Below are positions 5,593-63,409 of a DNA stretch of 64,000 nucleotides, one piece after another. Position numbers and translations under genes: made by a program. Source of the stretch: an uncultured Candidatus Peribacteria bacterium (GTDB lineage Bacteria; Patescibacteriota; Gracilibacteria; Peribacterales; Peribacteraceae); NCBI GenBank assembly GCA_964580035.1, contig CAZOJC010000005.1:9198-73197 (forward strand), in the 5' to 3' direction. The notes under the pieces were generated by a model. It saw only the letters and a list, made by a program, of their open reading frames with translations, searched no databases and was not told where the DNA came from. How positions within the stretch are numbered: position 1 is the first letter of the stretch; each line of letters opens with the position of its first letter.

Positions 5593-6815
5593 GCGAAATC
5601 ACTGCTTGTCGGTCATGCGAGGCGAAGAATTTTGACATCGTTCTTGATCTCGGAGCGCTTCCTCTTGCCAACGCTCTTCTCACGAGAGAGCAGTGCTCAC
5701 AGCCAGAAAGAAACTATCCTCTGACGCTGGTTCGATGTGCAACATGTTCACTTCTTCAGATTACCGAACGTGTTCCTGCGGATATTCTCTTCTCGCATTA
5801 CTTCTATTGTTCGTCATTCTCACGGACGTTTCTTGAGCATTGCAAATCGTTGGCGCAGCGAATGATTCGAGAGCGACAATTGAGCGCATCCTCTCTTGTG
5901 ATCGATATCGCGAGCAATGATGGCTACTTACTGCAGTACTATCGCGAAAAAAACATTCCAATCCTCGGAGTGGAACCAGCGAGGAATATTGCAGCTAAAG
6001 CAGTGGAGGAGGGGATCCCCACCCGCATGGCATTCTTCACGTCTGACGAGGCAGAAGCGATGGCGCAGGAAGGCATTCGCGCAGATGTCATTCATGCCAA
6101 CAATGTTCTGCCGCACGTGGCGAATCAAAAGGATTTCGTGCGCGGCATCAAACAAGTGCTGAAGCCGACAGGCATTGCCGTCATCGAGTTTGCTTACGCA
6201 GTCGATACCATTGATCGAACCGAGTTCGATCAGATCTACCACGAACACATGTGCTACTTCTCATTCACATCATTCCAACGATTATGTTCATCTGCAGGCC
6301 TAGCCACAGTGTCGGTAGAACGGCTATCTGTCCATGGCGGATCTCTCAGAGTTTTCCTTGCTCATAGTGCCATGACACAGGATGCTTCAGTCGCAGCTAT
6401 GCTGCATGCCGAGAAAGCGTGGGGAGTGGATACCCCCGAGCCGTACCGCAAGTTCGCTACCCGTGTTGCAACGCTCAAGACATCTCTCTTGGCGTTACTC
6501 AACGAGCTCAAAGCTCACGGTAAGCGTATTGCTGTCTACGGTGCATCCGCCAAAGGCAGCACGCTCATGAATTCATTTGGAATAGGGAAGGAATTGGTAG
6601 ACTACATAGTCGATAGAAACAGAGCGAAGCATGGATTTTTTTCACCAGGAACGCACGTGGAGATTTTTCCTGCTGAAAAATTACTTTCAGATCAACCTGA
6701 GTACACGCTTCTCCTCACATGGAATTTTGAGAGAGAAATTTTACTCGAACAGAAAGAGTATCGTGCACGTGGAGGAAAATTTATAGTGCCTATCCCAGAG
6801 CCTACAGTCGTCTGA
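5589..6815 (+). CDS. NDP-hexose C-methyltransferase (SAM-dependent, N-terminal Zn-ribbon)
   Basis: CRSC...CATC cysteine pairs followed by LPLANALL; methyltransferase core [12 protein letters not shown]; C-terminal C-methyltransferase-like region; ATGA overlap with the upstream stop. Confidence 0.7.
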
Positions 6816-6827
6816 TAGGATAGCAGC

Positions 6828-7355
6828 ATGCAGATGCATGAGTTGGATCTTCCGGGAGTATTCCTCGTAGACATTCAAAAAATGAGCGATAATCGAGGAT
6901 TTTTTGCTCGTACATGGGATGCTATACAGGCAAAAGAGACAGGTCTCGTGCCTCACTTTGAGTATTCCTGCATCTCGAGAAATACCGCCAAGCACACGCT
7001 GCGAGGTATGCATTACCAAAGACACCCGTATGGAGAGGTGAAGCTCGTTCGCTGCACAAAAGGAGCACTGTTCGATGTCGTCGTCGATCTGCGTCCTGCA
7101 TCTACAACTTTTTCACACTGGGTGAGTGTCGAGCTGAGCGCCGAGAACCATCGAGCTCTCTACATTCCTAAAGGCTGCGCACACGGATTTCTCACACTTG
7201 AAGATGAAACAGAGGTTCTCTATGAAATCGCGGGAGCGTACAAAGCAGAGGCATCAGTTGGCGTGAGATTTGATGATCCAGCATTCGGCATCGTCTGGCC
7301 AGCCGCACCCTCTGTGATCGCCTCACGTGATGCGAGCTACCCATTGTTTACATGA
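6828..7355 (+). CDS. rfbC: NDP-4-dehydro-6-deoxyhexose 3,5-epimerase (RmlC cupin family)
   Basis: LPGVFLVDIQKMSDNRGFFARTWD, GMHYQ, KLVRCTKGALFDVVVDLR and YIPKGCAHGF are typical RmlC motifs. Confidence 0.85.
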   Translation: MQMHELDLPGVFLVDIQKMSDNRGFFARTWDAIQAKETGLVPHFEYSCISRNTAKHTLRGMHYQRHPYGEVKLVRCTKGALFDVVVDLRPASTTFSHWVSVELSAENHRALYIPKGCAHGFLTLEDETEVLYEIAGAYKAEASVGVRFDDPAFGIVWPAAPSVIASRDASYPLFT

Positions 7356-8254
7356 GCCACAGAGTCCTCGTCACTGGAGCGAGCGGATTCATAGGCAGAG
7401 CAATCTTGCCCCTTCTGAGCGCTTTTGGATGCGAAATTCACGCTGTTTGTCAGACGAAATCTCTCGCCGTGCCAGATGTCACGTGGCATCGTACGGATCT
7501 TCTGCTCACAGAGCAGCGCAGAGAGCTCCTCGTGCAGGTTCGGCCTACTCACATCATTCACACAGCATGGATTACTACTCCGGAAATCTACTGGACATCG
7601 CCACTCAATGAATTGTGGAAAGCTGCCACGCTTGATCTCCTCTCTCTTGGGGAGAAGGTAGGTGCAGAGCGTTTTATAGGAGTGGGATCCTGCGCGGAGT
7701 ATGACTGGTCGGCAGGAGTAATGGACGAACACACCACTCCCCTGACAGCTGCTACGCCATACGGTCAAGCCAAGGCGGCCTGTGGTATGGCCGTCATTCA
7801 TCATGCGGGTGCCATGAGCACTGCATGGGGGAGACTATTTCATCTCTATGGCCCATATGAGCACCCACGAAGACTGGTGCCGTCTGTCATTCGTTCCCTA
7901 CTGGCAGGGAAGAGAGCCCAGTGTACGCACGGGGAGCAAATACGAGATTTCTTGCATGTGAGTGATGTGGCGGCTTCATTGGCCGCTCTGATGTTTTCGG
8001 ACTATACGGGTCCCGTGAACATTGGCTCTGGCAAACGGGTCGTCATCAAACAGATCATTACAATGATTGCGAGAGAACTCGATAGGGAAGATCTAATCGA
8101 CCTAGGGTCGATTCCTGCCCCACGCAATGATCCTCCATTACTCGCTCCGAACGTTGATCGATTAACGCGGTCAATCGGCTGGAAACCAGCGCACTCGTTA
8201 GAGCAAGGAATACAAAAAACCGTGGAGTGGTGGATGCAGCAAGAAAAAAAATAA
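7352..8254 (+). CDS. NAD-dependent epimerase/dehydratase family protein (likely NDP-4-keto sugar reductase)
   Basis: VLVTGASGFIGRAILPLL Rossmann motif; YGQAK Y-x3-K; ATGA overlap with rfbC. Confidence 0.75.
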   Translation: MSHRVLVTGASGFIGRAILPLLSAFGCEIHAVCQTKSLAVPDVTWHRTDLLLTEQRRELLVQVRPTHIIHTAWITTPEIYWTSPLNELWKAATLDLLSLGEKVGAERFIGVGSCAEYDWSAGVMDEHTTPLTAATPYGQAKAACGMAVIHHAGAMSTAWGRLFHLYGPYEHPRRLVPSVIRSLLAGKRAQCTHGEQIRDFLHVSDVAASLAALMFSDYTGPVNIGSGKRVVIKQIITMIARELDREDLIDLGSIPAPRNDPPLLAPNVDRLTRSIGWKPAHSLEQGIQKTVEWWMQQEKK

Positions 8255-8321
8255 TATATTTTCCTCAACCAAGGAAAAGAAGCTACTATACGTAGCGTAT
8301 TTCGCCTATTTCTTGCATCCG

Positions 8322-9086
8322 ATGAAGCTACACATAGACACTAATACGGCGTCACTCGTGCTAGAAGATGAAGCGTTCAGCAAGACAATTCCCCTCTACT
8401 CAAAAGAGTCATTTGAGATACTGTCAGACCTATGGGCTAAAGTTGGATGGAACGAAAAATACACGTATACATTCATGTGGATGGGGATACCAATCATTCA
8501 GCTTCCCGAGGATATGATACGGCTGCAGGAAGTCATCTGGCGTGTGAAGCCCGATGTCATCGTAGAATGCGGGGTGGCCCACGGTGGAGGGAGTATCTAC
8601 CTTGCAAGTATCTGTAAGGCCATAGGCAAAGGACGAGTGATTGGCGTGGAGGTGGAATTCCGCGGGGATCATAAAGAACAGATCGAGCGTCATATTCTCG
8701 GCCCGCTCATAACGCTCATCAATGCAAGCTCCATCGATCCAGCAACGGTTGCTCAGGTACGACGCCTCATACATCCAGGCGAAACCGTCATGGTCATTCT
8801 CGATTCTAACCATTCAAAGGCTCACGTGATGGCGGAGCTCGAAGCGTATCACAGTTTCATCACGCCAGGATCGTATATCGTTGCTACCGATGGATGCATG
8901 GAAGATTTCTACGACGCTCCAATAGGAAAGCCGAATTGGAAGCAGGATAATCCTGCTGCTGCAGCCCGCGATTTTGCAGCATCACATCCGGAATTTGTAT
9001 TTGACAATCCTGTGCCCCAATTCAATGAGAGCAAGCTTACGAAAACGATAACTCACTGGCCAGACGCTTGGCTAAAAAGAATTTGA
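8322..9086 (+). CDS. CmcI/cephalosporin-hydroxylase-family SAM-dependent O-methyltransferase
   Basis: WMGIPIIQLPEDMIRLQEVIWRVKPDVIVECGVAHGGGSIYLA matches the CmcI-type fold motif. A TTG at 8313 is an alternative start. Confidence 0.7.
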   Translation: MKLHIDTNTASLVLEDEAFSKTIPLYSKESFEILSDLWAKVGWNEKYTYTFMWMGIPIIQLPEDMIRLQEVIWRVKPDVIVECGVAHGGGSIYLASICKAIGKGRVIGVEVEFRGDHKEQIERHILGPLITLINASSIDPATVAQVRRLIHPGETVMVILDSNHSKAHVMAELEAYHSFITPGSYIVATDGCMEDFYDAPIGKPNWKQDNPAAAARDFAASHPEFVFDNPVPQFNESKLTKTITHWPDAWLKRI

Positions 9087-9098
9087 TAATCGACACCG

Positions 9099-10040
9099 AT
9101 GGACAATCCTTCCTTCCCTCTCGTTTCCGTCGGCATTCCTACCTACAACGAAGCCGAGTATATTCGGGCCTCACTTGATAATCTTCTGTCTCAGACCTAC
9201 CCAAATATTCAGATTACCATCTCTGATAATGCGAGCACTGACGGAACATCGGACATAGCGGCTGAGTATGCAAAAGCATTTCCGAACATCACACACGTAC
9301 GCCACGAGACAAATATTGGTCAACACGCAAACTTCAATTATCTCCCAACCGCTGCAACAGGCACCTATTTTTTGTGGGCCGCCGGCCACGATTTGCTCGA
9401 GCAGACGTTCATTGCCTCTGCGGTCGAGGCACTGCAGACTCATCCCACCGCAGTGCTCGCATTTCCCCGAACAATCGACATTCTGGCGGATGGCACGCCG
9501 TTCAATGAGAATTCACGTGTGTTTGATATTCTGAAGGCAGACGCGTGTAAGCGGTTTACTGAGACGATGTGGCGAGTGGATTGCAATTACGTGTACGGCG
9601 TGTACAAACGAGAGCCGATGCTTCGCACGCATCTCTTTCAGGCAATTCCCGCTCCGGATCGAGTATTCCTCTCAGAGATGGCAGTGCTCGGACCATTTGT
9701 GCCTGCCAATACGATCCGTTACTGCCGTATGAATAGAGGCAAGAAACAGACAGAAGTGGAAAAACGTCATCGACTCATGCGCTACATCATTCCAGGCAGA
9801 ACGTTCACGGACGCAGAGCTGATGACCAATCGTTTCTATGAGCCGACATTCAGGGCATTTCACAGGGTGGTATCGGAAGGGAATTTTTCGTTTTTTGAAA
9901 CAATCAGACTTCATTTTTCAGTTTGGCTTGCAGGAGTAATGAAAGCGCACATGTTTCCTGGGGCAGACGTTTTGAGCAAGATCGTCAAGACGTGTCTCCC
10001 TCGGCCAATACTCAAAAAAATACTCGCAAAGATGCAGTGA
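9099..10040 (+). CDS. Family 2 glycosyltransferase
   Basis: VSVGIPTYNEAEYIRASLDNLLSQTYPNIQITISDNASTDGT is the canonical GT2 N-terminus. Confidence 0.85.
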   Translation: MDNPSFPLVSVGIPTYNEAEYIRASLDNLLSQTYPNIQITISDNASTDGTSDIAAEYAKAFPNITHVRHETNIGQHANFNYLPTAATGTYFLWAAGHDLLEQTFIASAVEALQTHPTAVLAFPRTIDILADGTPFNENSRVFDILKADACKRFTETMWRVDCNYVYGVYKREPMLRTHLFQAIPAPDRVFLSEMAVLGPFVPANTIRYCRMNRGKKQTEVEKRHRLMRYIIPGRTFTDAELMTNRFYEPTFRAFHRVVSEGNFSFFETIRLHFSVWLAGVMKAHMFPGADVLSKIVKTCLPRPILKKILAKMQ

Positions 10041-10059
10041 GACCTAAGCGTGCGCTCCC

Positions 10060-10314
10060 TCACGCTTCCCTTGCCTTGCGCCCCATCTCAATCACCGCTC
10101 TGCAGATTTTCTCCATCGATGCTTCATCAAGATCAAAATCAATTGCTTCTTCAAGCCAATTGCTCAGCACCTGCTCTTCACGCGTGGCTAGCTGCTCATC
10201 GTCCGGAAGTTGCACCGTCACTTGGCGGACTAAGCCCATACGCCGAGAGAGTAATTCAACGATCTGACGATCGAGAATATCTATTTGCCTGCGCAGATCT
10301 GAAACAGAAGGCAT
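10060..10314 (-). CDS. AroQ-class (type II) chorismate mutase-like small protein
   Basis: LRRQIDILDRQIVELLSRRMGLVRQV followed by REEQVL resembles the CM_2 helix pattern. 84 aa. Confidence 0.5.
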   Translation of the reverse strand: MPSVSDLRRQIDILDRQIVELLSRRMGLVRQVTVQLPDDEQLATREEQVLSNWLEEAIDFDLDEASMEKICRAVIEMGRKAREA

Positions 10315-10454
10315 TGCGGGGCTATCCTCTCTATTTCAATAGATATTGCAATTGACAATATAGTATAAGTAGTTTTTTGAAATCATATATTCACGCCTTT
10401 TGCCTTGTTCCTGCAGAGAGAAAACAGGCATTACGCGCAGGGCAATTTTGCTAA

Positions 10455-12551
<2,097 letters not shown>

Positions 12552-49066: not shown

Positions 49067-50539
49067 CTATGCGATTTTTTTTGAATGCTTCCTTTCAAGT
49101 TTAGCAACCTTAATTGGTAATTCTACGAAGAATGTAGTGCCCTTACCTTCAACACCTTTACTCTCAAACCAGATTTTGCCGCCTTGGAGCTCAATGATTT
49201 CTTTAGCAATGTACAGTCCAAGCCCATTTCCATTAATATTTTTCGTATTACTGGCCCTGTACATTTGGGTAAAGATTTTATCTTTGTCTTTTTTGGGAAT
49301 ACCCAATCCAGAATCCTTTACAGTAATGTAGAGCATGGCATTTGTTTTCCTTACTTCGAATTCAACAGTACCGCCTTCCGATGTGTATTTAATTGCGTTA
49401 TTGAGTAGGTTATCGATAGAAAAATAGGTACGATTTTCATCAAGAAGCGTTGCTGGAAGATTAGATTGAATTGAGGTTTTATATTTTATCCCCTTCTGAG
49501 AAGCACCGATTAATGCAGCATCTGAGAGTCTTTTAAAGAAGATATTAAGATTTATTGGAGCAGGATGGACTGCTAATTTTTTACTAAATACATAGGCAGC
49601 ATCCAAGAACATAGCTGCTATGTTTCTAAGTTCTGCATTACCACTTTCGATTTGCTCAGCACAGTCTTTTTTGGAAGATTCTCCATCTCGCAGCATTTCG
49701 GAATACCATTTAAATCTGGTTGAAACTGCTCTGATCTGATGAGCAACGACATTTATCGTCGCATTTTTTGCCTCATTGGTTTCTACAAGAAGATTTATTG
49801 CATTTCGCCCCATGTAGATAACAGCTCCTACTAAAAATAATATAATTAATACAAGACCAGTACCAAATATCAGGAATGGCACTAGAGCTTGATGTGTTAT
49901 TTTTGCTAAATCGTTTGCTCGGATATCGACTGCAAGTATTGCAATTGTACTTCCACTTTCATTTTTTAATGGGGCATAGCCTGTCAGGACGTCACCCCAC
50001 TGATCTCCGTATGTTGTCTGATTCGTCAGCATTCCTCTGTAAGCTTCAAATGCTTCTTTTGGAGCTGTAGGATAAGGTTGGCCAGGCCACTGTAGTTGGT
50101 CTCCATCATTAATTATTCCGTCCCCATTTATATCAATTTTTGCATAAGGGTCGATAGAATGAGAATCTGCAACAAACTCCATTTTCGAGGGATCCGTTGA
50201 CGATTTTCGGATTATATACATAAATATAATATCTTTATTATTCTTTCTAATTTTCTCCATTTGCCGTACGACTTTAGGCCATTCTGGCCTCTTCCAATCC
50301 TCTTCATTATTAAGCATTTCTATGTCATGAGGGTTCAGTGTGGCAACAGATGTCGATACAATTGACAGCAATCGATCTCTTAAATTTTCTTCAAACAATT
50401 GTGTAGTTTTTCTATACAATGACCAAGAACCAGCTCCAATAATAATAAGCGCTGCTATAGTCATAACTCCTCCAAACAACAAAAATGGACGGATGTTAGA
50501 GCTTTTAATGAATTGACGAATGAGCATATTTCTTATCAT
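49067..50539 (-). CDS. Sensor histidine kinase with an extracytoplasmic Cache-like domain (orphan; no response regulator nearby)
   Basis: Two TM helices flank aa ~45-215. H-box-like VVAHQIRAV. HATPase motifs NLLNNAIKYT, DSGLGIP and GNGLGLYIAKEI. Confidence 0.85.
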   Translation of the reverse strand: MIRNMLIRQFIKSSNIRPFLLFGGVMTIAALIIIGAGSWSLYRKTTQLFEENLRDRLLSIVSTSVATLNPHDIEMLNNEEDWKRPEWPKVVRQMEKIRKNNKDIIFMYIIRKSSTDPSKMEFVADSHSIDPYAKIDINGDGIINDGDQLQWPGQPYPTAPKEAFEAYRGMLTNQTTYGDQWGDVLTGYAPLKNESGSTIAILAVDIRANDLAKITHQALVPFLIFGTGLVLIILFLVGAVIYMGRNAINLLVETNEAKNATINVVAHQIRAVSTRFKWYSEMLRDGESSKKDCAEQIESGNAELRNIAAMFLDAAYVFSKKLAVHPAPINLNIFFKRLSDAALIGASQKGIKYKTSIQSNLPATLLDENRTYFSIDNLLNNAIKYTSEGGTVEFEVRKTNAMLYITVKDSGLGIPKKDKDKIFTQMYRASNTKNINGNGLGLYIAKEIIELQGGKIWFESKGVEGKGTTFFVELPIKVAKLERKHSKKIA

Positions 50540-50581
50540 TATAGCACTAAATTACAACAGATGCTACGAAATTTTAGACTG

Positions 50582-51358
50582 TCAGCACTGAGATTTTTTA
50601 GCTGAAGCTACAAGAATTCCAGGAATACCAAGAATAGCAAGCCCCGGAGTATCAACTGAACAAATATCAATGCTTTCCTTTAAAAATCCAATTTTTTCTA
50701 GGCAATGCCTCAGTGATTGCTCTGTAACTCTGGCGCAAGGGAGCCATTCATGATCACCGTTTATATCGCCTAGAATATACTTTGTAGTATCTCTTAATGC
50801 CGACAGGAAAAGGTAACCCTCAGGGGCGACCATTATCGAAATATTATTCATCATCATTTGCCAACTCTTATCATTTGCACCGACCTCTTCTGCGCAATAG
50901 AAAGTGAGTACTACTGGATATCTTGTGCCTAAACTGAGAGGTGGTAATTTGGTGATATCACAATGATTAAGACTGCGAATTTTTTTACGCAAAAGATTCT
51001 CACGATCGATCACTTTTCCCTTTGTTACAATTTCCCCTTCCTCACGCAACACCATTTCAGTGTAATGGTTCCAAGAGAAAGCTTCGCTATGCCCCTCTTG
51101 CCATTTTTTGATTTCTGTCAAATTTTCCGGCAGGTAATCAGCCATGTCGATCGCGTCTACATATGGTGCGATAGGGAGTGCATGATGAATTGTAGGTCCA
51201 CAGCCAATTTCCAATGCTGAATTTATTTTCGGAAGCTTCTTGAACTTCTTTAGGAGAAATCGTGCTATTGGCGGTTCATCCTCATTCACATCTAAGTAGT
51301 ATGTTTCAAGATAACGCCGAGCAAAAAGATGTATATTTTTAAAATTGAATAGAGTCAT
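50582..51358 (-). CDS. NNMT/PNMT/TEMT-family SAM-dependent methyltransferase
   Basis: Start at MTLFNFKNIH. ALEIGCGPTIHHALPIAPYVDAIDMADYLPENLTEIKKWQEGHSEAFSWNHY matches the family signature G-x-G-P-T-I ... D-Y ... N ... E ... K-W ... F-x-W. Confidence 0.65.
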   Translation of the reverse strand: MTLFNFKNIHLFARRYLETYYLDVNEDEPPIARFLLKKFKKLPKINSALEIGCGPTIHHALPIAPYVDAIDMADYLPENLTEIKKWQEGHSEAFSWNHYTEMVLREEGEIVTKGKVIDRENLLRKKIRSLNHCDITKLPPLSLGTRYPVVLTFYCAEEVGANDKSWQMMMNNISIMVAPEGYLFLSALRDTTKYILGDINGDHEWLPCARVTEQSLRHCLEKIGFLKESIDICSVDTPGLAILGIPGILVASAKKSQC

Positions 51359-51485
51359 ATTTTTAGTATAACAGAATCTAATTCTGTGTTCTGCGTGGCT
51401 GCTAATCACACAAGTCTTTACAAGTATTTCCCATATTTTGATGTATTTCTTTTTGCAGAAGAAATACATTATACTTTTCTTCATT

Positions 51486-51836
51486 ATGAAAGAGCTACCA
51501 GCTTGGGTGTACGTCATCACAGCAGTTGGGATTGCTCTTTTGGCAAATTCAGTAAGTGCAATCTGGGCAAGGGGCGAAGAAAGCTTCTCAATCTGGCTTC
51601 TTGTTCTGCTGATTACGTCTCCGCTTGTCTTCATTTCTTTCGGGCTCACAACTTCACGATTGGGTGTCGCAATCAGTTCTGGAACCATTGACTCTCTTCT
51701 AACTATCACAACCATAATTGTCGGACTTTGTTTTTTTCAGGAATGGCAAAGAATATCCTCATTTCAATATCTTGGGATTTTATTAGCCGTCTCTGGCATA
51801 GCACTCATGGTATTTTTTCCTAATCCTGGAAATTAA
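51486..51836 (+). CDS. Small 4-TM membrane protein (SMR/EamA-like, DMT superfamily)
   Basis: Start at MKELPAWVYVITAVGIALLANS. 116 aa with four hydrophobic helices. TAATG overlap with the next gene. Confidence 0.5.
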   Translation: MKELPAWVYVITAVGIALLANSVSAIWARGEESFSIWLLVLLITSPLVFISFGLTTSRLGVAISSGTIDSLLTITTIIVGLCFFQEWQRISSFQYLGILLAVSGIALMVFFPNPGN

Positions 51837-53704
51837 TGCGTAACAATATTTTGACTAACTCAGCAAAAGCACAAAAGCATGACAAGATAAGGAGGCAATT
51901 ATCAAAGAGAAGATTGCCTAAACAATTTAGTAGTCTAGATTTCTTAGATATCAACCAGAGAGCTCAACACTTTGCACAGAAAATTGAGGAGAATTTTGAA
52001 AATATGGCAGAAATATTGCTTTCGTACGAGAGTTTCGAGGTAGTTCAAGATGAAACAAGAAGAACTCTCGATCTCCTCAATAATCTTTCCGAAAATAAAC
52101 AGTACTTCCAAATGCGAGTTGGAGCGGTTTGTGCTTTTCTTCCTCGTAATCAGCCTTTGTATGCACTTACATGTTTCGTAATTGTTCCATCGTTAATGGC
52201 AAGCGAATTACATTTTCGCATTCCTCAAAGCATGCGAAATTTTTTTCCTCAATTGCTTTCTCTCCTTGAGATTCAAGAACATTTCCCTAACATATTCGTT
52301 TCCCATCAAGAGAGGCTTGAATTCTTAAAAGAACGATCAGCTATTCGAGTCAACCAAGAAACAAAAGAGAGCTGGCCAGTTACGGATGCTGTCATTTTTA
52401 CCGGCACTTCAAATCATGCCGATCGTCTGCGGTTGGTATTTGATAAACGAACACTTTTTATTGCAAATGGATCAGGACACAATCCTCTGATCGTAGCTGA
52501 GGATGCGAATTTATCCGATGCAGTAGAGGCTGTTCTCACACTACAGATGTACAATCAAGGACAGGACTGCGCAGCGCCAAATGCTATTCTTGTACACAAA
52601 AAGGTATTTAGCGCATTCCGACGACAGCTCTTAAGCAAGCTTTGTACTATCAAAGTTGGGCATTATCGAGATAGATTGTGTAGAGTAGGGCCAATCAGTG
52701 ACCCAGAAGACTTAGTGCGAATACAGAGAATACTTATTGATAATCGTCAATGGCTCGATCCGGCCACACCAGGCGTCATCAGTTCCAGTAATGCAATAGT
52801 GAATCCAACAGTTATTTGCAAGCCATTAAAAGAAGGGGGAAATTTTTCTGAAGTATTCGCACCAATCATATTTCTACAAATATACGAAGAAGACTCTGCA
52901 TTATCGCTCTATTTCGAGAATCCTCATTACGCGTTGCATGCCATGTACGTTACTGTCTACGGTAAAAGTAGCTATGCAGATAAACTCTCTAGCAAATTGA
53001 TTGATGGAAAAGTTCTGCACGATCGGGCATCAATTATACATAATACACATCTGCATGCGCTGGGAGTGGAGAGGGGTACGAAACCGTATGGTGGTCATGG
53101 ATACAGCGCCTCTAATCTGAGTATACATGGGAAAATTCTTTGTATGCCCACATTACCCCAGCGAGATATTTATCAGTGGATAGTTAAGCCACTTCTACGC
53201 AAGGATGTACTAAAAAATCGTAAAGACATGTTACGACGATTAATACAAATAAAATATAAAGATGTTCAGAAATACTTAGGTATGAAATCTCTCAAAACTG
53301 CTGGGCATACTAGTCACACTACTGAAATGGCATACATAGATTCCAAAATCCTTGAAAAAGAAAAAAAGCGCTACATTCAAGTAAGGAAAGATAATATATA
53401 TTCTCTATTACAGAGTCCAAATGCAGAATATATTGCTCGTTTAGAATACAACGATCTACAGAACATTCGTGTGTTGCATTCCTTGCTTTCTAAGAGGCAT
53501 AGCAAAAATAAGGTTGAGTTTGCTCAGAAACTATACGAAATATCAAAAAAAAAACATGCCTCTGAAAATGAAAACCGCGCACATCAGTTGATTTTTTTCT
53601 TACATGTATATCAACTTTTATTCGGTAGACAGAACGGCCCGCGACTGGCTAACTTTCTTTTAGATGCTGATCGGTCAAAAGTATGTGAATTGCTTGATGT
53701 GTAG
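51836..53704 (+). CDS. Aldehyde-dehydrogenase-superfamily protein with a ~180-aa helical C-terminal extension
   Basis: FIANGSGHNPLIV (ELGG-like) and YNQGQDCAAPNAILVH (catalytic-Cys region) in the usual ALDH order. Confidence 0.6.
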   Translation: MRNNILTNSAKAQKHDKIRRQLSKRRLPKQFSSLDFLDINQRAQHFAQKIEENFENMAEILLSYESFEVVQDETRRTLDLLNNLSENKQYFQMRVGAVCAFLPRNQPLYALTCFVIVPSLMASELHFRIPQSMRNFFPQLLSLLEIQEHFPNIFVSHQERLEFLKERSAIRVNQETKESWPVTDAVIFTGTSNHADRLRLVFDKRTLFIANGSGHNPLIVAEDANLSDAVEAVLTLQMYNQGQDCAAPNAILVHKKVFSAFRRQLLSKLCTIKVGHYRDRLCRVGPISDPEDLVRIQRILIDNRQWLDPATPGVISSSNAIVNPTVICKPLKEGGNFSEVFAPIIFLQIYEEDSALSLYFENPHYALHAMYVTVYGKSSYADKLSSKLIDGKVLHDRASIIHNTHLHALGVERGTKPYGGHGYSASNLSIHGKILCMPTLPQRDIYQWIVKPLLRKDVLKNRKDMLRRLIQIKYKDVQKYLGMKSLKTAGHTSHTTEMAYIDSKILEKEKKRYIQVRKDNIYSLLQSPNAEYIARLEYNDLQNIRVLHSLLSKRHSKNKVEFAQKLYEISKKKHASENENRAHQLIFFLHVYQLLFGRQNGPRLANFLLDADRSKVCELLDV

Positions 53705-53811
53705 AACGGTAGCGCTCCAAACGAGCGACTAATCGCTTTGGTTTCGATGTCAAAGAATGCCTTGATATGTTACTTTCATCTCTATGAAGAAAAATCATTT
53801 GCTTACTGTAA

Positions 53812-53862
53812 ATAACGCATTTTGATGAGTGAGATTTTCACTGTTTTGAAAATGTGCGTTAT
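53812..53862 (+). promoter_or_regulatory. Nested imperfect palindrome upstream of the TrmB-like regulator gene (candidate operator or terminator)
   Basis: ATAACGCA...TGCGTTAT outer arms, TTTT/AAAA, and inner AGTGA-GATTT-TCACT (53828-53842). It lies 31 nt before the ATG at 53893. Confidence 0.35.
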
Positions 53863-53892
53863 AGTAAAAACTGTTTGTAGCTTATAACTGTC

Positions 53893-56052
53893 ATGACGGG
53901 TTTCCTTCTTCCAGCCAGCATCGAAGCATATTTGAGAGATGCACATTTCACAGCTACTGAAATTCTTGTCATTCGCAAAATGATTGAGGAAAAAGCACTC
54001 TCCCTTAGAGAATTAGGAGCAAAAACAGGAAAAAGCACAGGTGTATTGGACCAAGCAGTAAAAAAACTTCTTCAAAAGAAAGTGATCAAGCGGGAATTGA
54101 TTAATGGAAATCCAAAATTTACATTAGTCTCCCTAGAATCACTTGAAAAATGGATGGCACTTGAAGTTGAGAAAAGGAAGAATGAGCTTGATCGAAAACA
54201 GCAGGATCTTGCGGAGTATATATGTTCGCTCGAGACGGAAGATACTCGACCAAATATTCAAAATTTCGAAGGAGAAATTGCACTAAGAAAGGCATACAAA
54301 GAAATTATCAATGCCGAGTCAGAACTTGTTACTTTTCTCCCCAGTAATTTTAATGACGAGGAAGATCCCTTAAAAGAAATAGTAGCAGAATTTACACGAG
54401 AACGAAGAAGGAGAGGGATGTTTTTACGAGTCATTTATGCAGATACAGTCACAGGGCATTCATTTCAATCTAAAGATATCCTCTTTCATCGCCGGACCGT
54501 CCTTGTGCCAAAAGAAGAATTATCACTTGGATTTGAGAAGATGATTGTTGGAGATAAGATTTTCTGCATTGATCATAATAAAAAATTTGGCTGTTGCATT
54601 ACATTCAAAGAATTCGCAGAAGCAGAACGGGAAAAGTTTTCTCGATTATGGAGTGGCGTGACTGGGAAGACAGAGGTGGTAGTTTGTAACAATGAATTGA
54701 AATTTCGGAGAAAGAGAACACTAATTGCAGTACGCAAATATTTTTTTGATAAGAATCATTATTCCAACCTGTTAACAGGTTGTTTGCTTTCAATTCTTAT
54801 TACTGCGATATTTTTTAGTATTTCCGATCATAAAAATCAACATGCGCTAGCGCAGCGAGCCCTCACAACAGCAGTGTCCTGGTCCAGAAAGATAAATGTC
54901 TATCAACTAGAGAGGTTGCAGAATACGCCTAGCGATAGCATCAATCGCATGAATGTCGAGAGGCAACTCCATTTGTTAAATGAAAAAGAAGACAATGCAT
55001 TTGAATATACGATTCTTCAGGAAGGTGATGTGCAATCAAATCAGTTTCAAATGTCAATAACGAGTAACAACATGGACTTGTCGTCCATTAGTATGAATAG
55101 CGAAGAATCGAAGAACATTAGTGATACTGCTTCGCCTTTTATTCTGCATTCAAGTCGATCAAAAGCTGTAGCTGTGTCGCCGATTGTTAATTTTCACGGA
55201 AAAGTAATTGCTACGTTACTGATTCAGTTGCGCCAATCAAATAGCCATATAGTTCATCAATTAATTTTGAAGCCAGTAGCGACTTTCTTTGTGGTTTTTA
55301 TCATAATGTGTATTACATATCTGATATTTCAAAGGCGGGATTTACTCAAAGAAGTTATAAAATATTGGCATCTTAAGAATATTTTTGTCGTTCTTTTTGT
55401 AGGTTCTACGCTCTCGTTTAGTGTGTCATACGTCATATATCGCAATATGATTAAAACAGTATCTAATCAAGTTGGTCAGAGACTTTTGGTCATAGCAGAA
55501 ACTGCTTCAAAGGATATTGATGCAAGAGATATCGATGTTATTCGTAGCAAAGATGATGTCAATACAGAAGCCTATCAAAGATTATTTAAAAAACTTAATG
55601 AGATTCGGAGCAAGGATATTGCAATTCAATATGTCACTATTTATAGGAAAACTGCGGACAGTGATATATTAGAATTCATAGCAGATGCAGATGCCAATGC
55701 TTACAATATTCACTATGTCGTGAACAATAAAGATATCTCTACTGAAACTATTTTTCCAGGTGAGAAATATGAAATTGCTAAGAATGACTACTTAAAACAG
55801 TCGTTTCATGAGCCTATGTTTTCTCAGTCATTCTTTACAGACAATTGGGGCACATATGTATCTGGTGCTGCACCAATATACAATCAAAACAACAAGGTGG
55901 TGGCAATTCTTAATGTAGATGTAAATGTGAGTGATATTTCTCAAGCAATTCGCAAGCAAATGTCCCCTTTCTTTCTATTTAGTGCAATACTATCTTTGCT
56001 CAGCCTATCTGTTGTAGCCTACAGAAAAATAGTGGAAAGTTTTCATGGTTAG
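53893..56052 (+). CDS. Membrane-tethered TrmB-like winged-helix regulator with two extracytoplasmic domains (4 TM helices)
   Basis: N-terminal ATEILVIRKMIEEKALSLRELGAKTGKSTGVLDQAVKKLLQKKVIK (wHTH). TM helices near aa 295, 460, 500 and 695. C-terminal sensor motif DNWGTYVSGAAPIYNQNNKVVAILNVDV. Confidence 0.7.
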   Translation: MTGFLLPASIEAYLRDAHFTATEILVIRKMIEEKALSLRELGAKTGKSTGVLDQAVKKLLQKKVIKRELINGNPKFTLVSLESLEKWMALEVEKRKNELDRKQQDLAEYICSLETEDTRPNIQNFEGEIALRKAYKEIINAESELVTFLPSNFNDEEDPLKEIVAEFTRERRRRGMFLRVIYADTVTGHSFQSKDILFHRRTVLVPKEELSLGFEKMIVGDKIFCIDHNKKFGCCITFKEFAEAEREKFSRLWSGVTGKTEVVVCNNELKFRRKRTLIAVRKYFFDKNHYSNLLTGCLLSILITAIFFSISDHKNQHALAQRALTTAVSWSRKINVYQLERLQNTPSDSINRMNVERQLHLLNEKEDNAFEYTILQEGDVQSNQFQMSITSNNMDLSSISMNSEESKNISDTASPFILHSSRSKAVAVSPIVNFHGKVIATLLIQLRQSNSHIVHQLILKPVATFFVVFIIMCITYLIFQRRDLLKEVIKYWHLKNIFVVLFVGSTLSFSVSYVIYRNMIKTVSNQVGQRLLVIAETASKDIDARDIDVIRSKDDVNTEAYQRLFKKLNEIRSKDIAIQYVTIYRKTADSDILEFIADADANAYNIHYVVNNKDISTETIFPGEKYEIAKNDYLKQSFHEPMFSQSFFTDNWGTYVSGAAPIYNQNNKVVAILNVDVNVSDISQAIRKQMSPFFLFSAILSLLSLSVVAYRKIVESFHG

Positions 56053-61330: not shown

Positions 61331-62917
61331 ATGATAACTTCTCACCTTCCTGCCAGCATCGAAGCCTATTTGCGTGATGCACGCTTCACTGCGACCGAAA
61401 TTCTCGTCATCCGAAAAATGATTGAGGAGAGAGCTCTCACCCTGCGCGAGCTGGGATCGAAAACGGGAAAGAGTACGGGCGTCCTCGATCAAGCGGTGAA
61501 AAAGCTACTCAGTAAGAAGATCATGAAGCGAGAAATGATCAACGGACAGGCAAAATTTACGCTCGTCTCATTGGCCGCATTAGAACTGTGGATGCAGCAG
61601 CAAATCTCGCTTAAAAAGCAGCAGCTCGACAGGCAGCACCAGAACTTTTCAACATTCGTTGCATCGTTACAGAACGATAAGCATAAGCCCACAATGGAAT
61701 ATTTCGAGGGCGAAACGGGCATCCAGAAAGCCTACCTGCGTCTTCTGGATCTCGATAAAGAGATGCTCGTCTACCTCCCCGTTTCTTGCAAAGAAGAAGA
61801 CGATCACATGCGAGAGCAGAGGCTGCAGTTCTTTCGAGATCGACACAAGAAAAAGGTGTTTCAGCGCATCATTGCCCACGACACCCCCCTCGGAGCGAGG
61901 TACCAGAGCAGGGATGTCTTCGAGTACCGAAAAACGGTGCTTGTGTCACCGGAAGAAATTCCCATAGAATTTGAAAAAATAATTGCCGGAGACACGTATG
62001 CGTGTTTCGATCATTCGTCTCAAAAGGCATGTTTCATTATGTATCCTCTCTTTGCTCAGGCAGAGCGCATTGCGTTTGAGATGATTTGGAAGAATCACCA
62101 GAAGACATCATGCATGAGCAGGGCCAGCGAAGTGTGCTCGAAGCAGTGCAATACAGCACCTCACATTAGCCTTCGAACACGATTGCTCTCCACTCTCCGA
62201 GAGAAGATTTTGAATCGAAGAATGATAGTTGCACTCGCATCTCTTGCCATGCTCACAGGCCTTATCACGCTTGGTCTGTATGAAAATATCGTCCAGATGA
62301 ATCGTGCGAGGGTGCTGGATAAAGCCGTCGCCGCAGCAGCGACAGGAGCGCTTCAGTTTTCTGCAGAAGAAGTAGAGGAATTACAGAAGCCATCAGATAT
62401 CAATAAACCTGTGTATGAGAGCGTTGTACAAAAACTGGATCGAATCAGAAAGCAGAATACGAGAATAATGTATGTCTACATCATGCGTCCGACGGATGAC
62501 CCCAATTTTTTCGCCTTCGTCGCCGATGCAGATTCTCTCAATCCATTTGAAACAAGAGATGTCAATGGCGATGGAGTGATCAATCAAGCCGATCACTTAA
62601 GCCCGCCAGGAGAGCTCTACGACGTCAGCGAATATATCGAAGTCGCCAAGCATTCACTCATTGAGCCGTACGGCTCCACCACGATCTATGAAGATCTGTG
62701 GGGGTCGTACATTGCAGGATGGGCGCCCATAAAAGACGAAAGCGGAAAGACTGTTGCGGTGCTCGGAACAGATATACGCGCAGATGATGCTGAAAGACTC
62801 TCGGCCGAATCCTTTCCTCCACTCATACTTTTTTTGGGCTTTTTCACTCTCCTTCTCTTGGTCTCAGCTGTGACTGCCGCGTATCTCCACCGCTTAGAGC
62901 GGAGCACTCACCGATAA
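61331..62917 (+). CDS. Membrane-tethered TrmB-like winged-helix regulator, paralog of 53893-56052 (2 TM helices, one extracytoplasmic domain)
   Basis: The N-terminal ~90 aa are nearly collinear with the paralog (LPASIEAYLRDA.FTATEILVIRKMIEE.AL.LRELG.KTGKSTGVLDQAVKKLL). Sensor motif DLWGSYIAGWAPIKDESGKTVAVLGTDI. Confidence 0.7.
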   Translation: MITSHLPASIEAYLRDARFTATEILVIRKMIEERALTLRELGSKTGKSTGVLDQAVKKLLSKKIMKREMINGQAKFTLVSLAALELWMQQQISLKKQQLDRQHQNFSTFVASLQNDKHKPTMEYFEGETGIQKAYLRLLDLDKEMLVYLPVSCKEEDDHMREQRLQFFRDRHKKKVFQRIIAHDTPLGARYQSRDVFEYRKTVLVSPEEIPIEFEKIIAGDTYACFDHSSQKACFIMYPLFAQAERIAFEMIWKNHQKTSCMSRASEVCSKQCNTAPHISLRTRLLSTLREKILNRRMIVALASLAMLTGLITLGLYENIVQMNRARVLDKAVAAAATGALQFSAEEVEELQKPSDINKPVYESVVQKLDRIRKQNTRIMYVYIMRPTDDPNFFAFVADADSLNPFETRDVNGDGVINQADHLSPPGELYDVSEYIEVAKHSLIEPYGSTTIYEDLWGSYIAGWAPIKDESGKTVAVLGTDIRADDAERLSAESFPPLILFLGFFTLLLLVSAVTAAYLHRLERSTHR

Positions 62918-62977: not shown

Positions 62978-63409
62978 ATGCAGCGTGCGAGCATGGTGTG
63001 CCTCGGCCTCTTTCTTACCCTCATGGGCTTCCTCTTTGGAAGTATGCATACTGTACATCGTGTGCAGAGAGAGCGTCCCCTCACAATCACCGCATCGGTG
63101 TCCCCTCGGTTCAGCACCGTGCGGATCGAGGAAATCGGGTCAGTGTTTTCTGGAACAGCAAGCGGATCGGTTCGCTTGTTTCTTGGAGATAGATCGGTGC
63201 CCATTGAAGGAGGAAAATTCCAAGTGTCACTTGTCAAGAATATCACGCCTAAAACAGCTGCTCCCGTTGGCATGCAGTTCGTTGCTTCCAAGAGGGGCAA
63301 GTACTATTATCGTTTGAATACCGCAGCCGCCAACGCATTGAGCGAAGCCAATCGGTTGTATTTCCCAAGCGCGGAGGAAGCTGAGAGTGCAGGATACAAG
63401 AGGCGATGA
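62978..63409 (+). CDS. Small membrane-anchored protein with a C-terminal Ada-Zn-like / 'sunset'-like motif
   Basis: N-terminal TM helix MVCLGLFLTLMGFLFG. C-terminal GKYYYRLNTAAANALSEANRLYFPSAEEAESAGYK. Confidence 0.45.
   Translation: MQRASMVCLGLFLTLMGFLFGSMHTVHRVQRERPLTITASVSPRFSTVRIEEIGSVFSGTASGSVRLFLGDRSVPIEGGKFQVSLVKNITPKTAAPVGMQFVASKRGKYYYRLNTAAANALSEANRLYFPSAEEAESAGYKRR

What the first reader, a model, noticed from the sequence alone, without database searches (positions are those of the whole stretch)
49067..50539. One extracytoplasmic sensor module, with a DxNGDGxIN calcium-loop-like insert, is shared by a histidine kinase and two DNA-binding regulators
The HK periplasmic region reads MYIIRKSSTDPSKMEFVADSHSIDPYAKIDINGDGIINDGDQLQWPGQPYP...YGDQWGDVLTGYAPLKNESGSTIAILAVDIRANDL. 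It aligns collinearly with the C-terminal domain of ORF 61331-62917: MYVYIMRPTDDPNFFAFVADADSLNPFETRDVNGDGVINQADHLSPPGELYD...YEDLWGSYIAGWAPIKDESGKTVAVLGTDIRADDAE. It also aligns, without the loop, with ORF 53893-56052 (EFIADADANAY...PGEKY...DNWGTYVSGAAPIYNQNNKVVAILNVDV). The D-x-N-G-D-G-x-I-N-x-x-D loop (50099-50134 and 62558-62593) resembles EF-hand or dockerin calcium sites inserted into a Cache-like fold. The same input module is thus wired to two different outputs within 14 kb.
Basis: partly seen in the sequence, partly recalled or inferred. Interest (0 to 1): 0.6.

Follow-up and report, generated by a model that had tools for sequence, protein, structure and literature searches.

The report
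Calcium-loop Cache sensor shared by kinase and regulators
An ultra-small (CPR/Peregrinibacteria) bacterium uses one outward-facing sensor domain, of the common Cache type but with a built-in calcium-site-like loop, on a histidine kinase and on two membrane-anchored DNA-binding regulators. This is ordinary domain re-use, but in a sensor family and a regulator design that I found described in no paper.

Summary
The extracytoplasmic part of the kinase (49067-50539, minus strand) is homologous to the C-terminal modules of ORF 61331-62917 (BLASTP E 2e-35) and ORF 53893-56052 (E 1e-22). A fourth copy sits on another contig.

AlphaFold models (pLDDT 88-89) with Foldseek place the module in the single-Cache/PDC fold. 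Two transmembrane helices bracket it. No Pfam Cache model reaches its threshold.

The DxNGDGxIN..D loop lies between strands beta2 and beta3. Across 529 related modules it is conserved exactly at EF-hand loop positions 1, 3, 5, 6, 8, 9 and 12. Distant homologues outside the CPR lack it.

Both regulators have a TrmB-type winged-helix head (Foldseek TrmBL2, E 5e-9). Relatives carry one to five tandem TM-Cache-TM modules.

The four copies in this genome fall in four old clades, and switches between kinase and regulator are rare.

The kinase, ORF 53893-56052, an NNMT-like methyltransferase, a small membrane protein and an ALDH-like enzyme form a 7-kb low-GC island. Kinase orthologues adjoin that ALDH-like gene in 29 of 34 CPR loci. 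A related genome keeps the kinase and both regulator types clustered.

Verdict: a new variant of known kinds, of moderate interest.

The parts
49067..50539 (-). Histidine kinase P0001 (490 aa): TM1, sensor, TM2, then directly the DHp helix (His266) and the ATPase domain. It has no HAMP domain.
   Evidence: HATPase_c E 5e-26; WalK-type core E 2e-40, residues 260-476.
49874..50428 (-). Kinase sensor module (residues 38-222), single-Cache/PDC fold.
   Evidence: AF2 pLDDT 89.2, pTM 0.84. Foldseek hits to Tlp3, WalK, KinD and CitA at E ~1e-4, TMq 0.5-0.58. TM helices at 19-37 and 223-241.
50099..50134 (-). EF-hand-like acidic loop DINGDGIINDGD (D136-D147), between beta2 and beta3 of the Cache fold.
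   Evidence: The model has a one-turn helix at loop positions 10-12.
61331..62917 (+). P0002 (528 aa): membrane-tethered TrmB-like regulator with one sensor module. Its GC content matches the flanking genome.
61331..62140 (+). P0002 cytoplasmic head: winged helix, coiled coil and an alpha/beta domain (TrmB-type).
   Evidence: Foldseek TrmBL2 5bpd E 4.6e-9 over ~260 columns. Pfam TrmB in 13 of 28 family members, but not in P0002 itself.
62279..62821 (+). P0002 sensor module (residues 317-497), flanked by TM 298-316 and TM 498-516.
   Evidence: HMM of A2, E 5.6e-71. BLASTP to the kinase E 2e-35. Foldseek Cache hits.
62558..62593 (+). EF-hand-like loop DVNGDGVINQAD (D410-D421).
   Evidence: Helix at loop positions 10-12 in the model.
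53893..56052 (+). P0003 (719 aa): TrmB-like head plus two TM-bracketed modules (4 TM helices). Low GC (36%).
54826..55272 (+). P0003 module 1 (residues ~312-460), a degenerate copy of the sensor without the loop.
   Evidence: Two weak collinear HMM pieces: model positions 10-74 and 151-187, E 0.027 and 0.013.
55438..55959 (+). P0003 module 2 (residues ~516-689). The core is well conserved, but the acidic loop is replaced by YVVNNKDISTET.
   Evidence: HMM E 1.5e-64. Alignment A2. It falls in a distal-module clade of 26 TrmB-type modules, support 99.
50582..51358 (-). NNMT/PNMT/TEMT-family methyltransferase, directly upstream of the kinase on the same strand.
   Evidence: Pfam E 7e-33. True start at the Met shown. 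Orthologue beside the kinase in L005, L056, L057 and G002.
51486..51836 (+). Small 116-aa polytopic membrane protein, weakly EamA/SMR-like. Its stop overlaps the next gene's ATG.
   Evidence: (EamA E 0.08, not significant). 116-aa homologues in L011, L027 and L056.
51836..53704 (+). ALDH-like protein (622 aa) with a class I lysyl-tRNA-synthetase C-terminal tail. It is the conserved neighbour of this kinase clade.
   Evidence: Pfam Aldedh E 2e-23. Tail profile against PDB 1irx, E 3.6e-8. Present beside the kinase in 29 of 34 CPR loci.
49067..56052 (.). Low-GC island: genes at 36-40% GC (GC3 30-39%), against 48-55% in the flanking genes.

Best explanation
The three proteins share a TM-sCache-TM input cassette.

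The cassette (shown unless marked):
- It is a single-Cache (PDC) domain exposed outside the cell.
- Its long N-terminal helix continues from the first membrane helix, and its C-terminal helix runs into the second.
- Between strands beta2 and beta3, the stretch where (from my knowledge of Cache structures) the lid of the ligand pocket lies, the CPR branch has gained a 12-residue (14 in many members) EF-hand-type loop, DxNxDGx[ILV][DEN]xx[DE].
- Inferred: the loop most likely holds a Ca2+ ion. I think Ca2+ acts as a cofactor that shapes or stiffens the pocket lid, rather than being the only signal. Modules without the loop keep every other invariant residue.

In the kinase (mechanism inferred): a change in the sensor passes through TM2 straight into the DHp helix (His266). 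This sets phosphotransfer to one of only three response regulators in the genome, none of them adjacent.

In the two regulators (mechanism inferred): the same cassette, once in P0002 and twice in P0003, is attached behind a cytoplasmic TrmB-type head. This gives ToxR/CadC-style one-component transmembrane transcription factors. A low-confidence linker joins head and membrane, so control is probably through dimerisation or positioning at the membrane.

Origin (shown): the sharing is old domain shuffling inside a Peregrinibacteria-expanded family, not a recent local duplication. The proteins belong to a conserved sensory cluster that also holds a small membrane protein, an NNMT-like methyltransferase and, in this kinase clade, an ALDH-like enzyme with a LysRS tail.
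For: - Homology.
- Fold.
- Topology. It matches the Cache hallmark described in PMC4822843.
- Loop conservation over 529 modules: D 91% at position 1, N/D 92% at 3, D/N 92% at 5, G 86% at 6, I/L/V 81% at 8, D/E/N 80% at 9, D/E 89% at 12. Positions 2, 4 and 7 vary freely.
- PS00018 positions 1-12 fit 48% of modules, against 0.3% of shuffled sequences.
- Both models put a helical turn at loop positions 10-12.
- One family member hits Pfam EF-hand_5.
- The loop is absent from non-CPR homologues, which are fused to cyclase or GGDEF outputs.
- P0003's module 2, which lacks the loop, keeps all 13 invariant columns of A2: R72, F83, D86, P113, G114, Y117, D140, G143, G148, A150, P151, D166, P182.
- TrmB head.
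- One to five modules per protein.
- Tree: four window modules in four deep clades, and only 3 kinase/regulator switches among 109 modules, against ~35 when labels are shuffled.
- Cluster conservation.
Against: - No coordinates were available, so the loop's metal geometry is untested, and AlphaFold does not model ions.
- The loop has no entering helix and no partner EF-hand.
- No Pfam Cache model reaches its gathering score: E 0.005-0.2.
- No ligand is known.
- No adjacent response regulator, and no shared operator motif was found.
- About a quarter of modules, mostly distal ones in multi-module regulators, work without the loop.
Confidence: 0.7

Rival explanations
1. Ca2+ itself is the signal. 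The cassette would be a dedicated external-calcium (or other hard divalent cation) receptor that drives both the kinase and the regulators.
For: The EF-hand ligand pattern is the most conserved feature in the central (beta2-beta3) part of the module. It sits where Cache ligands bind, between beta2 and beta3. The PDC-fold sensor PhoQ is regulated by divalent cations (abstract of PMC4473727).
Against: Modules without the loop, such as P0003's module 2 and 23% of the family, keep all other invariant residues, so something else is conserved for function. Single high-affinity EF-type loops in extracellular proteins are commonly structural (my own knowledge).
Confidence: 0.2
2. The loop binds no metal. 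It is an acidic surface loop used for protein contacts in a dockerin-like way, for example with a partner on the host cell or in the envelope.
For: Weak Dockerin_1 match over the loop, E 0.26. CPR bacteria live attached to hosts (general knowledge).
Against: Dockerins need two duplicated loop-helix segments, and here there is one loop inside a Cache fold. The conserved positions are the metal-ligand positions, with an invariant Gly at position 6.
Confidence: 0.08
3. The three copies result from recent duplication or gene conversion inside this locus, so the shared input has no regulatory meaning.
For: The copies lie within 14 kb. In the relative G002, two regulator genes share identical upstream DNA and N-termini.
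Against: The window's modules are only 24-37% identical to each other. Each has much closer relatives in other genomes (68-77%). They fall in four deep clades. Their GC contents differ, 36-37% against 49%.
Confidence: 0.02

Closest known systems
Single-Cache/PDC periplasmic sensors of histidine kinases and chemoreceptors (CitA/DcuS, WalK extracellular domain, KinD, Tlp3 distal module, sCache formate sensors)
   Same: Same fold and same TM-helix-sensor-helix-TM topology. Best Foldseek hits at E ~1e-4, TMq 0.5-0.58.
   Different: Sequence identity is 10-18%. No Pfam Cache model reaches threshold. An EF-hand-type loop occupies the beta2-beta3 region. No HAMP or cytoplasmic PAS domain lies between TM2 and DHp.
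Cache_heme family (bioRxiv 10.64898/2026.02.01.703092 and 10.64898/2026.05.25.727664; abstracts seen)
   Same: A Cache fold that gained a cofactor-binding element by insertion.
   Different: There the element is a helical insert with CXXCH and covalent haem. Here it is an acidic loop predicted to hold Ca2+, and no experiment has been done.
ToxR/CadC-type membrane-integrated one-component regulators (my own knowledge)
   Same: A cytoplasmic N-terminal winged-helix DNA-binding domain tethered to an extracytoplasmic sensor, with no phosphorelay.
   Different: The head is TrmB-type, not OmpR-type. The sensor is bracketed by two TM helices, and relatives repeat it up to five times.
TrmB/TrmBL2 regulators (PDB 5bpd)
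   Same: Winged helix, coiled coil and C-terminal alpha/beta domain (Foldseek E 4.6e-9).
   Different: Known TrmB proteins are soluble and bind sugar or chromatin. These are membrane-anchored with external Cache modules.
Canonical EF-hand and dockerin Ca2+ loops (PROSITE PS00018, pattern from memory)
   Same: A 12-residue loop with D/N at positions 1, 3 and 5, G at 6, a hydrophobic residue at 8 and an acidic residue at 12.
   Different: A single loop with no helix-loop-helix pair. Position 13 is not hydrophobic. Many members have a 14-residue variant.
PhoQ periplasmic sensor
   Same: A PDC-fold kinase sensor whose activity depends on divalent cations (abstract of PMC4473727).
   Different: PhoQ uses an acidic patch facing the membrane (my own knowledge), not an EF-type loop. 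No sequence relation was found here.

Membership tests
Cache (PDC) superfamily | Extracytoplasmic domain between two TM helices, with a long N-terminal helix that extends TM1 (PMC4822843) | tested here: met
   TM helices flank every module. The models show helices 2-28 and 296-340 running into the domain. Definition read.
Cache (PDC) superfamily | PAS-like alpha/beta core resembling solved Cache domains | tested here: met
   Foldseek probability 1.00, E 1e-4 to 1e-3, to Tlp3, WalK, KinD, CitA and sCache formate sensors for two independent models.
Any named Pfam Cache family (sCache_3_x, dCache_1, Cache_3-Cache_2) | Score above the family's gathering threshold | tested here: not met
   Best hits 11.5-16.5 bits against cut-offs of 27.7-45. 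Only 1 of 28 relatives hits dCache_1 at E 7e-4.
EF-hand | 12-residue loop with ligands at positions 1, 3, 5, 9 and 12, and Gly at 6 | tested here: met
   DINGDGIINDGD and DVNGDGVINQAD fit PS00018 positions 1-12. 48% of 511 modules fit, against 0.3% of shuffled sequences. Column frequencies.
EF-hand | Helix-loop-helix, usually paired | tested here: not met
   Coil precedes the loop and only a 3-residue helix follows it. There is one loop per module.
EF-hand | Ca2+ coordination geometry and measured binding | not testable with these tools
   Model coordinates are not returned, and no ion is modelled.
Dockerin type I | Two tandem ~22-residue Ca-loop-plus-helix segments, with a significant Pfam Dockerin_1 match | tested here: not met
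   A single loop, with Dockerin_1 at E 0.26 and 11.9 bits against a cut-off of 22.9.
HisKA-type sensor histidine kinase | DHp helix with phospho-acceptor His, plus a GHKL ATPase domain | tested here: met
   HATPase_c E 5e-26. NCBIfam kinase models align from residue ~260. His is nearly invariant in A1. Profile hits to solved kinases at E 1e-52.
Two-component system | Cognate response regulator, usually adjacent | tested here: not met
   None is adjacent. The genome has 3 receiver domains, all elsewhere. A regulator follows the kinase in only 1 of the CPR loci (L015, the same place as L007), and another lies upstream of the ALDH-like gene in L041.
TrmB family regulators | N-terminal winged helix, coiled coil and C-terminal alpha/beta domain | tested here: met
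   Foldseek TrmBL2 E 4.6e-9 over ~260 columns. Pfam TrmB in 13 of 28 relatives, best E 5.6e-6, though not in P0002 or P0003 themselves.
TrmB family regulators | DNA binding and effector response | not testable with these tools
   No shared operator motif was found in a k-mer comparison of 13 upstream regions.

The most novel reading that the evidence does not exclude
The TM-Cache-TM cassette is the receptor arm of a self-contained, horizontally mobile signalling unit of CPR bacteria. In this reading, the linked ALDH-like/LysRS-tail enzyme and the NNMT-like methyltransferase make a lysine-derived, possibly N-methylated, amine or amino-aldehyde. The small membrane protein exports it. The Ca2+-loaded Cache modules of the kinase and of the membrane-tethered TrmB regulators then sense it outside the cell. 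That would make it an autocrine or quorum-type circuit in organisms not known to have one.
Probability: 0.12. Interest if true: 0.8.

Novelty: new variant of a known kind. Interest (0 to 1): 0.5.

Why it matters
CPR/Patescibacteria have tiny genomes with very few signalling proteins. This genome has about five kinases and three response regulators, so each retained sensor is likely to matter for their host-attached life.

This work defines three things:
1. An unnamed Cache sub-family (about 1,000 clusters at 50% identity) with a built-in EF-hand-type loop.
2. Membrane-tethered TrmB-type transcription factors carrying one to five such modules. I found no paper describing this design.
3. A conserved link between one kinase clade and an uncharacterised ALDH-like/LysRS-tail enzyme cassette.

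Together these give a concrete handle, a purifiable 185-residue domain, for asking what these bacteria sense. If the loop binds Ca2+, it would be a Cache domain with an EF-hand-type metal site in its lid, which my two paper searches did not find described.

Tried and rejected
- Sequence searches of the head against solved structures gave nothing significant. Only the fold comparison showed TrmBL2.
- No flanking direct or inverted repeats mark the low-GC island.
- A k-mer comparison of 13 upstream regions found no shared operator for the TrmB-like heads.
- Copper sensing by P0002, suggested by the divergent csoR-copA operon, was rejected. The 74% orthologue in L056 sits beside the small/ALDH/NNMT/kinase operon with no cop genes, and the all-oxygen Asp/Asn ligands do not suit Cu(I).
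- 'A hallmark of all CPR' was rejected. Only 5 of 151 sampled Patescibacteria genomes have the module at E <= 1e-10, and only 1 of 151 has the ALDH-like gene.
- Module-bearing proteins that are neither kinase nor TrmB-like were all fragments from short contigs. I therefore could not confirm other outputs for the loop-bearing family.
- Two literature searches found no paper on an EF-hand loop in a Cache domain or on these regulators.
- Metal-site geometry could not be checked, because the structure tool returns no coordinates.

Full report
**What is there**

The window lies in a 1.16-Mb, 98%-complete genome. The nearest database relatives of its proteins are labelled Peregrinibacteria/Peribacteria and other Patescibacteria.

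- ORF 49067-50539 (minus strand, P0001, 490 aa) is a histidine kinase. HATPase_c scores E 5e-26, and NCBIfam kinase models align from residue ~260.
- ORFs 61331-62917 (P0002, 528 aa) and 53893-56052 (P0003, 719 aa) share an N-terminal ~290-residue head (39% identity, E 5e-93).

The kinase's extracytoplasmic part aligns with the C-terminal parts of P0002 (32% identity, E 2e-35) and P0003 (24% identity, E 1e-22). The quoted loop coordinates are exact. A whole-genome search finds a fourth copy in a second kinase on contig C2.

A hydropathy scan puts a membrane helix on each side of every module. P0001 has TM 19-37 and 223-241. P0002 has TM 298-316 and 498-516. P0003 has four TM helices around two modules, and its first module is degenerate.

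**Fold**

An AlphaFold2 model of kinase residues 40-225, built on 68 sequences, has pLDDT 89.2 and pTM 0.84. Foldseek against the PDB returns only Cache/PDC sensors: the Tlp3 distal module, the WalK extracellular domain, KinD, CitA and sCache formate sensors (E ~1e-4, TMq 0.5-0.58).

The full P0002 model (pLDDT 87.8) gives the same Cache hits for its C-terminal part. For residues 1-270 it matches TrmBL2 (5bpd, E 4.6e-9). Pfam TrmB, MarR_2 or HTH_24 hit 12-13 of 28 family members, although not P0002 itself.

The long helix that continues TM1 into the domain is the Cache hallmark described by Upadhyay et al. (PMC4822843). No Pfam Cache model reaches its gathering score. The module is therefore a Cache-superfamily member by structure and topology, but belongs to no named family.

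**The loop**

In both models the loop lies in the coil between beta2 and beta3, and a one-turn helix occupies loop positions 10-12.

I collected 529 modules from 364 proteins with an HMM of alignment A2. The conserved positions are:

| Loop position | Residues | Frequency |
|---|---|---|
| 1 | D | 91% |
| 3 | N/D | 92% |
| 5 | D/N | 92% |
| 6 | G | 86% |
| 8 | I/L/V | 81% |
| 9 | D/E/N | 80% |
| 12 | D/E | 89% |

Positions 2, 4 and 7 vary freely. This is the EF-hand loop pattern. PROSITE PS00018 positions 1-12 (pattern written from memory) fit 48% of 511 modules, against 0.3% of shuffled sequences. A further 23.5% have a 14-residue variant.

Most kinases outside the Peribacteria group also carry an extra acidic stretch just upstream of the loop.

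Distant homologues from Myxococcota, Planctomycetota, a cyanobacterium and Verrucomicrobiota have the module without the loop. There it is joined to HAMP plus cyclase or GGDEF outputs. So the loop is an insertion of the CPR branch.

P0003's second module, which lacks the loop, keeps all 13 invariant columns of A2. For that reason I read Ca2+ as a cofactor of the pocket lid rather than the sole signal. The geometry could not be tested, because no coordinates are returned.

**How widespread**

phmmer against 1.84 billion representative proteins finds 1,048 clusters at E <= 1e-3 and 324 at E <= 1e-10. Complete proteins are of two kinds:
- ~490-aa kinases;
- TrmB-headed proteins with one to five tandem TM-Cache-TM modules, for example P0244 with four and P0248 with five.

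Everything else in the set was a fragment.

The head family (220 hits) also occurs with other Cache types or with no sensor at all. Its recognition helix (KSTGVLDQA.KK.L) is essentially invariant.

In an even sample of 151 Patescibacteria genomes, only 5 have the module at E <= 1e-10, three of them in the window's own family. The distribution is patchy.

**History**

A maximum-likelihood tree of 109 modules puts the four window modules in four deep clades:
- kinase clade A (P0001);
- kinase clade B (the C2 kinase);
- a clade made mostly of TrmB first modules (P0002);
- a clade made mostly of TrmB distal modules (P0003).

Only three kinase/regulator switches are needed, against ~35 when labels are shuffled. 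One TrmB group of 8 lies inside kinase clade A, whose support is 99. The shared input is therefore old shuffling, not local duplication.

**Context**

P0001, an NNMT-family methyltransferase (50582-51358), a 116-aa membrane protein (51486-51836), a 622-aa ALDH-like protein (51836-53704) and P0003 all have 36-40% GC. Their neighbours, and P0002, have 48-55%. No bounding repeats were found.

In 29 of 34 CPR loci fetched with the sensor, an orthologue of the ALDH-like protein lies beside the kinase (47-62% identity over nearly its full length). In 28 of them it lies upstream on the same strand. Those loci were fetched through a single peptide pattern, so they are biased toward kinase clade A.

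The ALDH-like tail matches the C-terminal end of class I LysRS (1irx, E 3.6e-8). This confirms part of earlier notes from this scan.

Three related loci show the same set of genes:
- In L056, the 74% orthologue of P0002 is divergent from a small/ALDH/NNMT/kinase operon.
- In L057, that operon abuts a transposase and phage-like genes.
- In the family relative G002, a kinase, the small protein, the methyltransferase, a two-module regulator and a one-module regulator are clustered without the ALDH-like gene.

The ALDH-like gene is rare: 1 of 151 sampled genomes.

The 14-kb co-location is therefore a conserved sensory cluster. In this genome it has been rearranged and interrupted by a csoR-copA copper operon. 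That copper adjacency is not conserved.

**Mechanism**

Shown: homology, fold, topology, loop conservation, output domains, and gene linkage.

Inferred:
- Ca2+ occupies the loop.
- The sensor passes its signal through TM2 directly into the DHp helix, since there is no HAMP domain.
- Phosphotransfer goes to one of three non-adjacent receivers.
- The TrmB-headed proteins regulate at the membrane. The low-confidence linker at residues 265-275 argues against rigid coupling and for control by dimerisation or positioning.

**Novelty**

Re-use of one input domain on different outputs is a standard principle. Table 1 of PMC4822843 already lists Cache domains on kinases, chemoreceptors, cyclases and transcription factors.

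Searches found no paper on an EF-hand loop inside a Cache domain or on TrmB-headed transmembrane regulators. The nearest precedent for a cofactor insert is the Cache_heme family. Other agents of this scan independently noted the same loop family in other genomes. These are unreviewed leads that agree with my counts.

It is a new variant of known kinds and of moderate interest.

Noticed in passing
window 49067-56052: A 7-kb low-GC island: genes at 36-40% GC with GC3 of 30-39%, against 48-55% GC (GC3 46-63%) in the flanking genes. It holds the kinase, the NNMT-like methyltransferase, the small membrane protein, the ALDH-like protein and P0003. No bounding repeats were found.
   Followed up: partly
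window 51836-53704; loci L011-L041: The 622-aa ALDH-like protein keeps the catalytic-Cys block NQGQDCAAP, has ANGSGHNP where the general-base ELGGK motif normally sits, and ends in a class I LysRS C-terminal domain (1irx, E 3.6e-8). It lies next to the kinase orthologue in 29 of 34 CPR loci, yet occurs in only 1 of 151 sampled Patescibacteria genomes.
   Followed up: partly
window 50582-51715 (minus) and 51486-51836 (plus): The 377-aa ORF overextends the methyltransferase, whose real start is the Met at 51358. Its first ~90 codons 'match' other CPR loci only as the antisense shadow of the conserved 116-aa membrane-protein gene on the other strand. That gene's stop overlaps the ALDH-like ATG by one base.
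   Followed up: yes
P0244, P0248 (database proteins): TrmB-headed proteins with four and five tandem TM-Cache-TM modules (8-10 membrane helices, 1254 and 1412 aa). Some modules have the acidic loop and some do not.
   Followed up: partly
window 61331-61560 and 53893-54120; alignment A3: The winged-helix recognition region (GKSTGVLDQAVKKLL) is identical in P0002 and P0003, despite 39% identity across the heads and different GC contents. It is invariant across 28 relatives, which suggests one conserved DNA target. No shared operator motif was found.
   Followed up: partly
L057 5786-12341: In the closest kinase relative (73% identity), the small/ALDH/NNMT/kinase operon is followed by a Transposase_mut gene, ParB-methyltransferase genes and a terminase-like gene. 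This hints that the cassette moves on mobile DNA.
   Followed up: no
L058 (G002:C9) 6753-11373: Two adjacent TrmB-like regulator genes (711 and 539 aa) share ~120 nt of identical upstream DNA and identical first ~60 residues. This is a recent tandem duplication followed by module gain or loss.
   Followed up: no
window 62978-63409; L056 6388-6819: A 143-aa ORF with no Pfam hit follows P0002. An ORF of the same length follows its orthologue in L056. I did not align them.
   Followed up: no
L005 7376-8599: In another Peribacteria locus, an Orn/DAP/Arg decarboxylase gene lies between the kinase and the NNMT-like methyltransferase. This fits an amine-related theme for the cluster.
   Followed up: no
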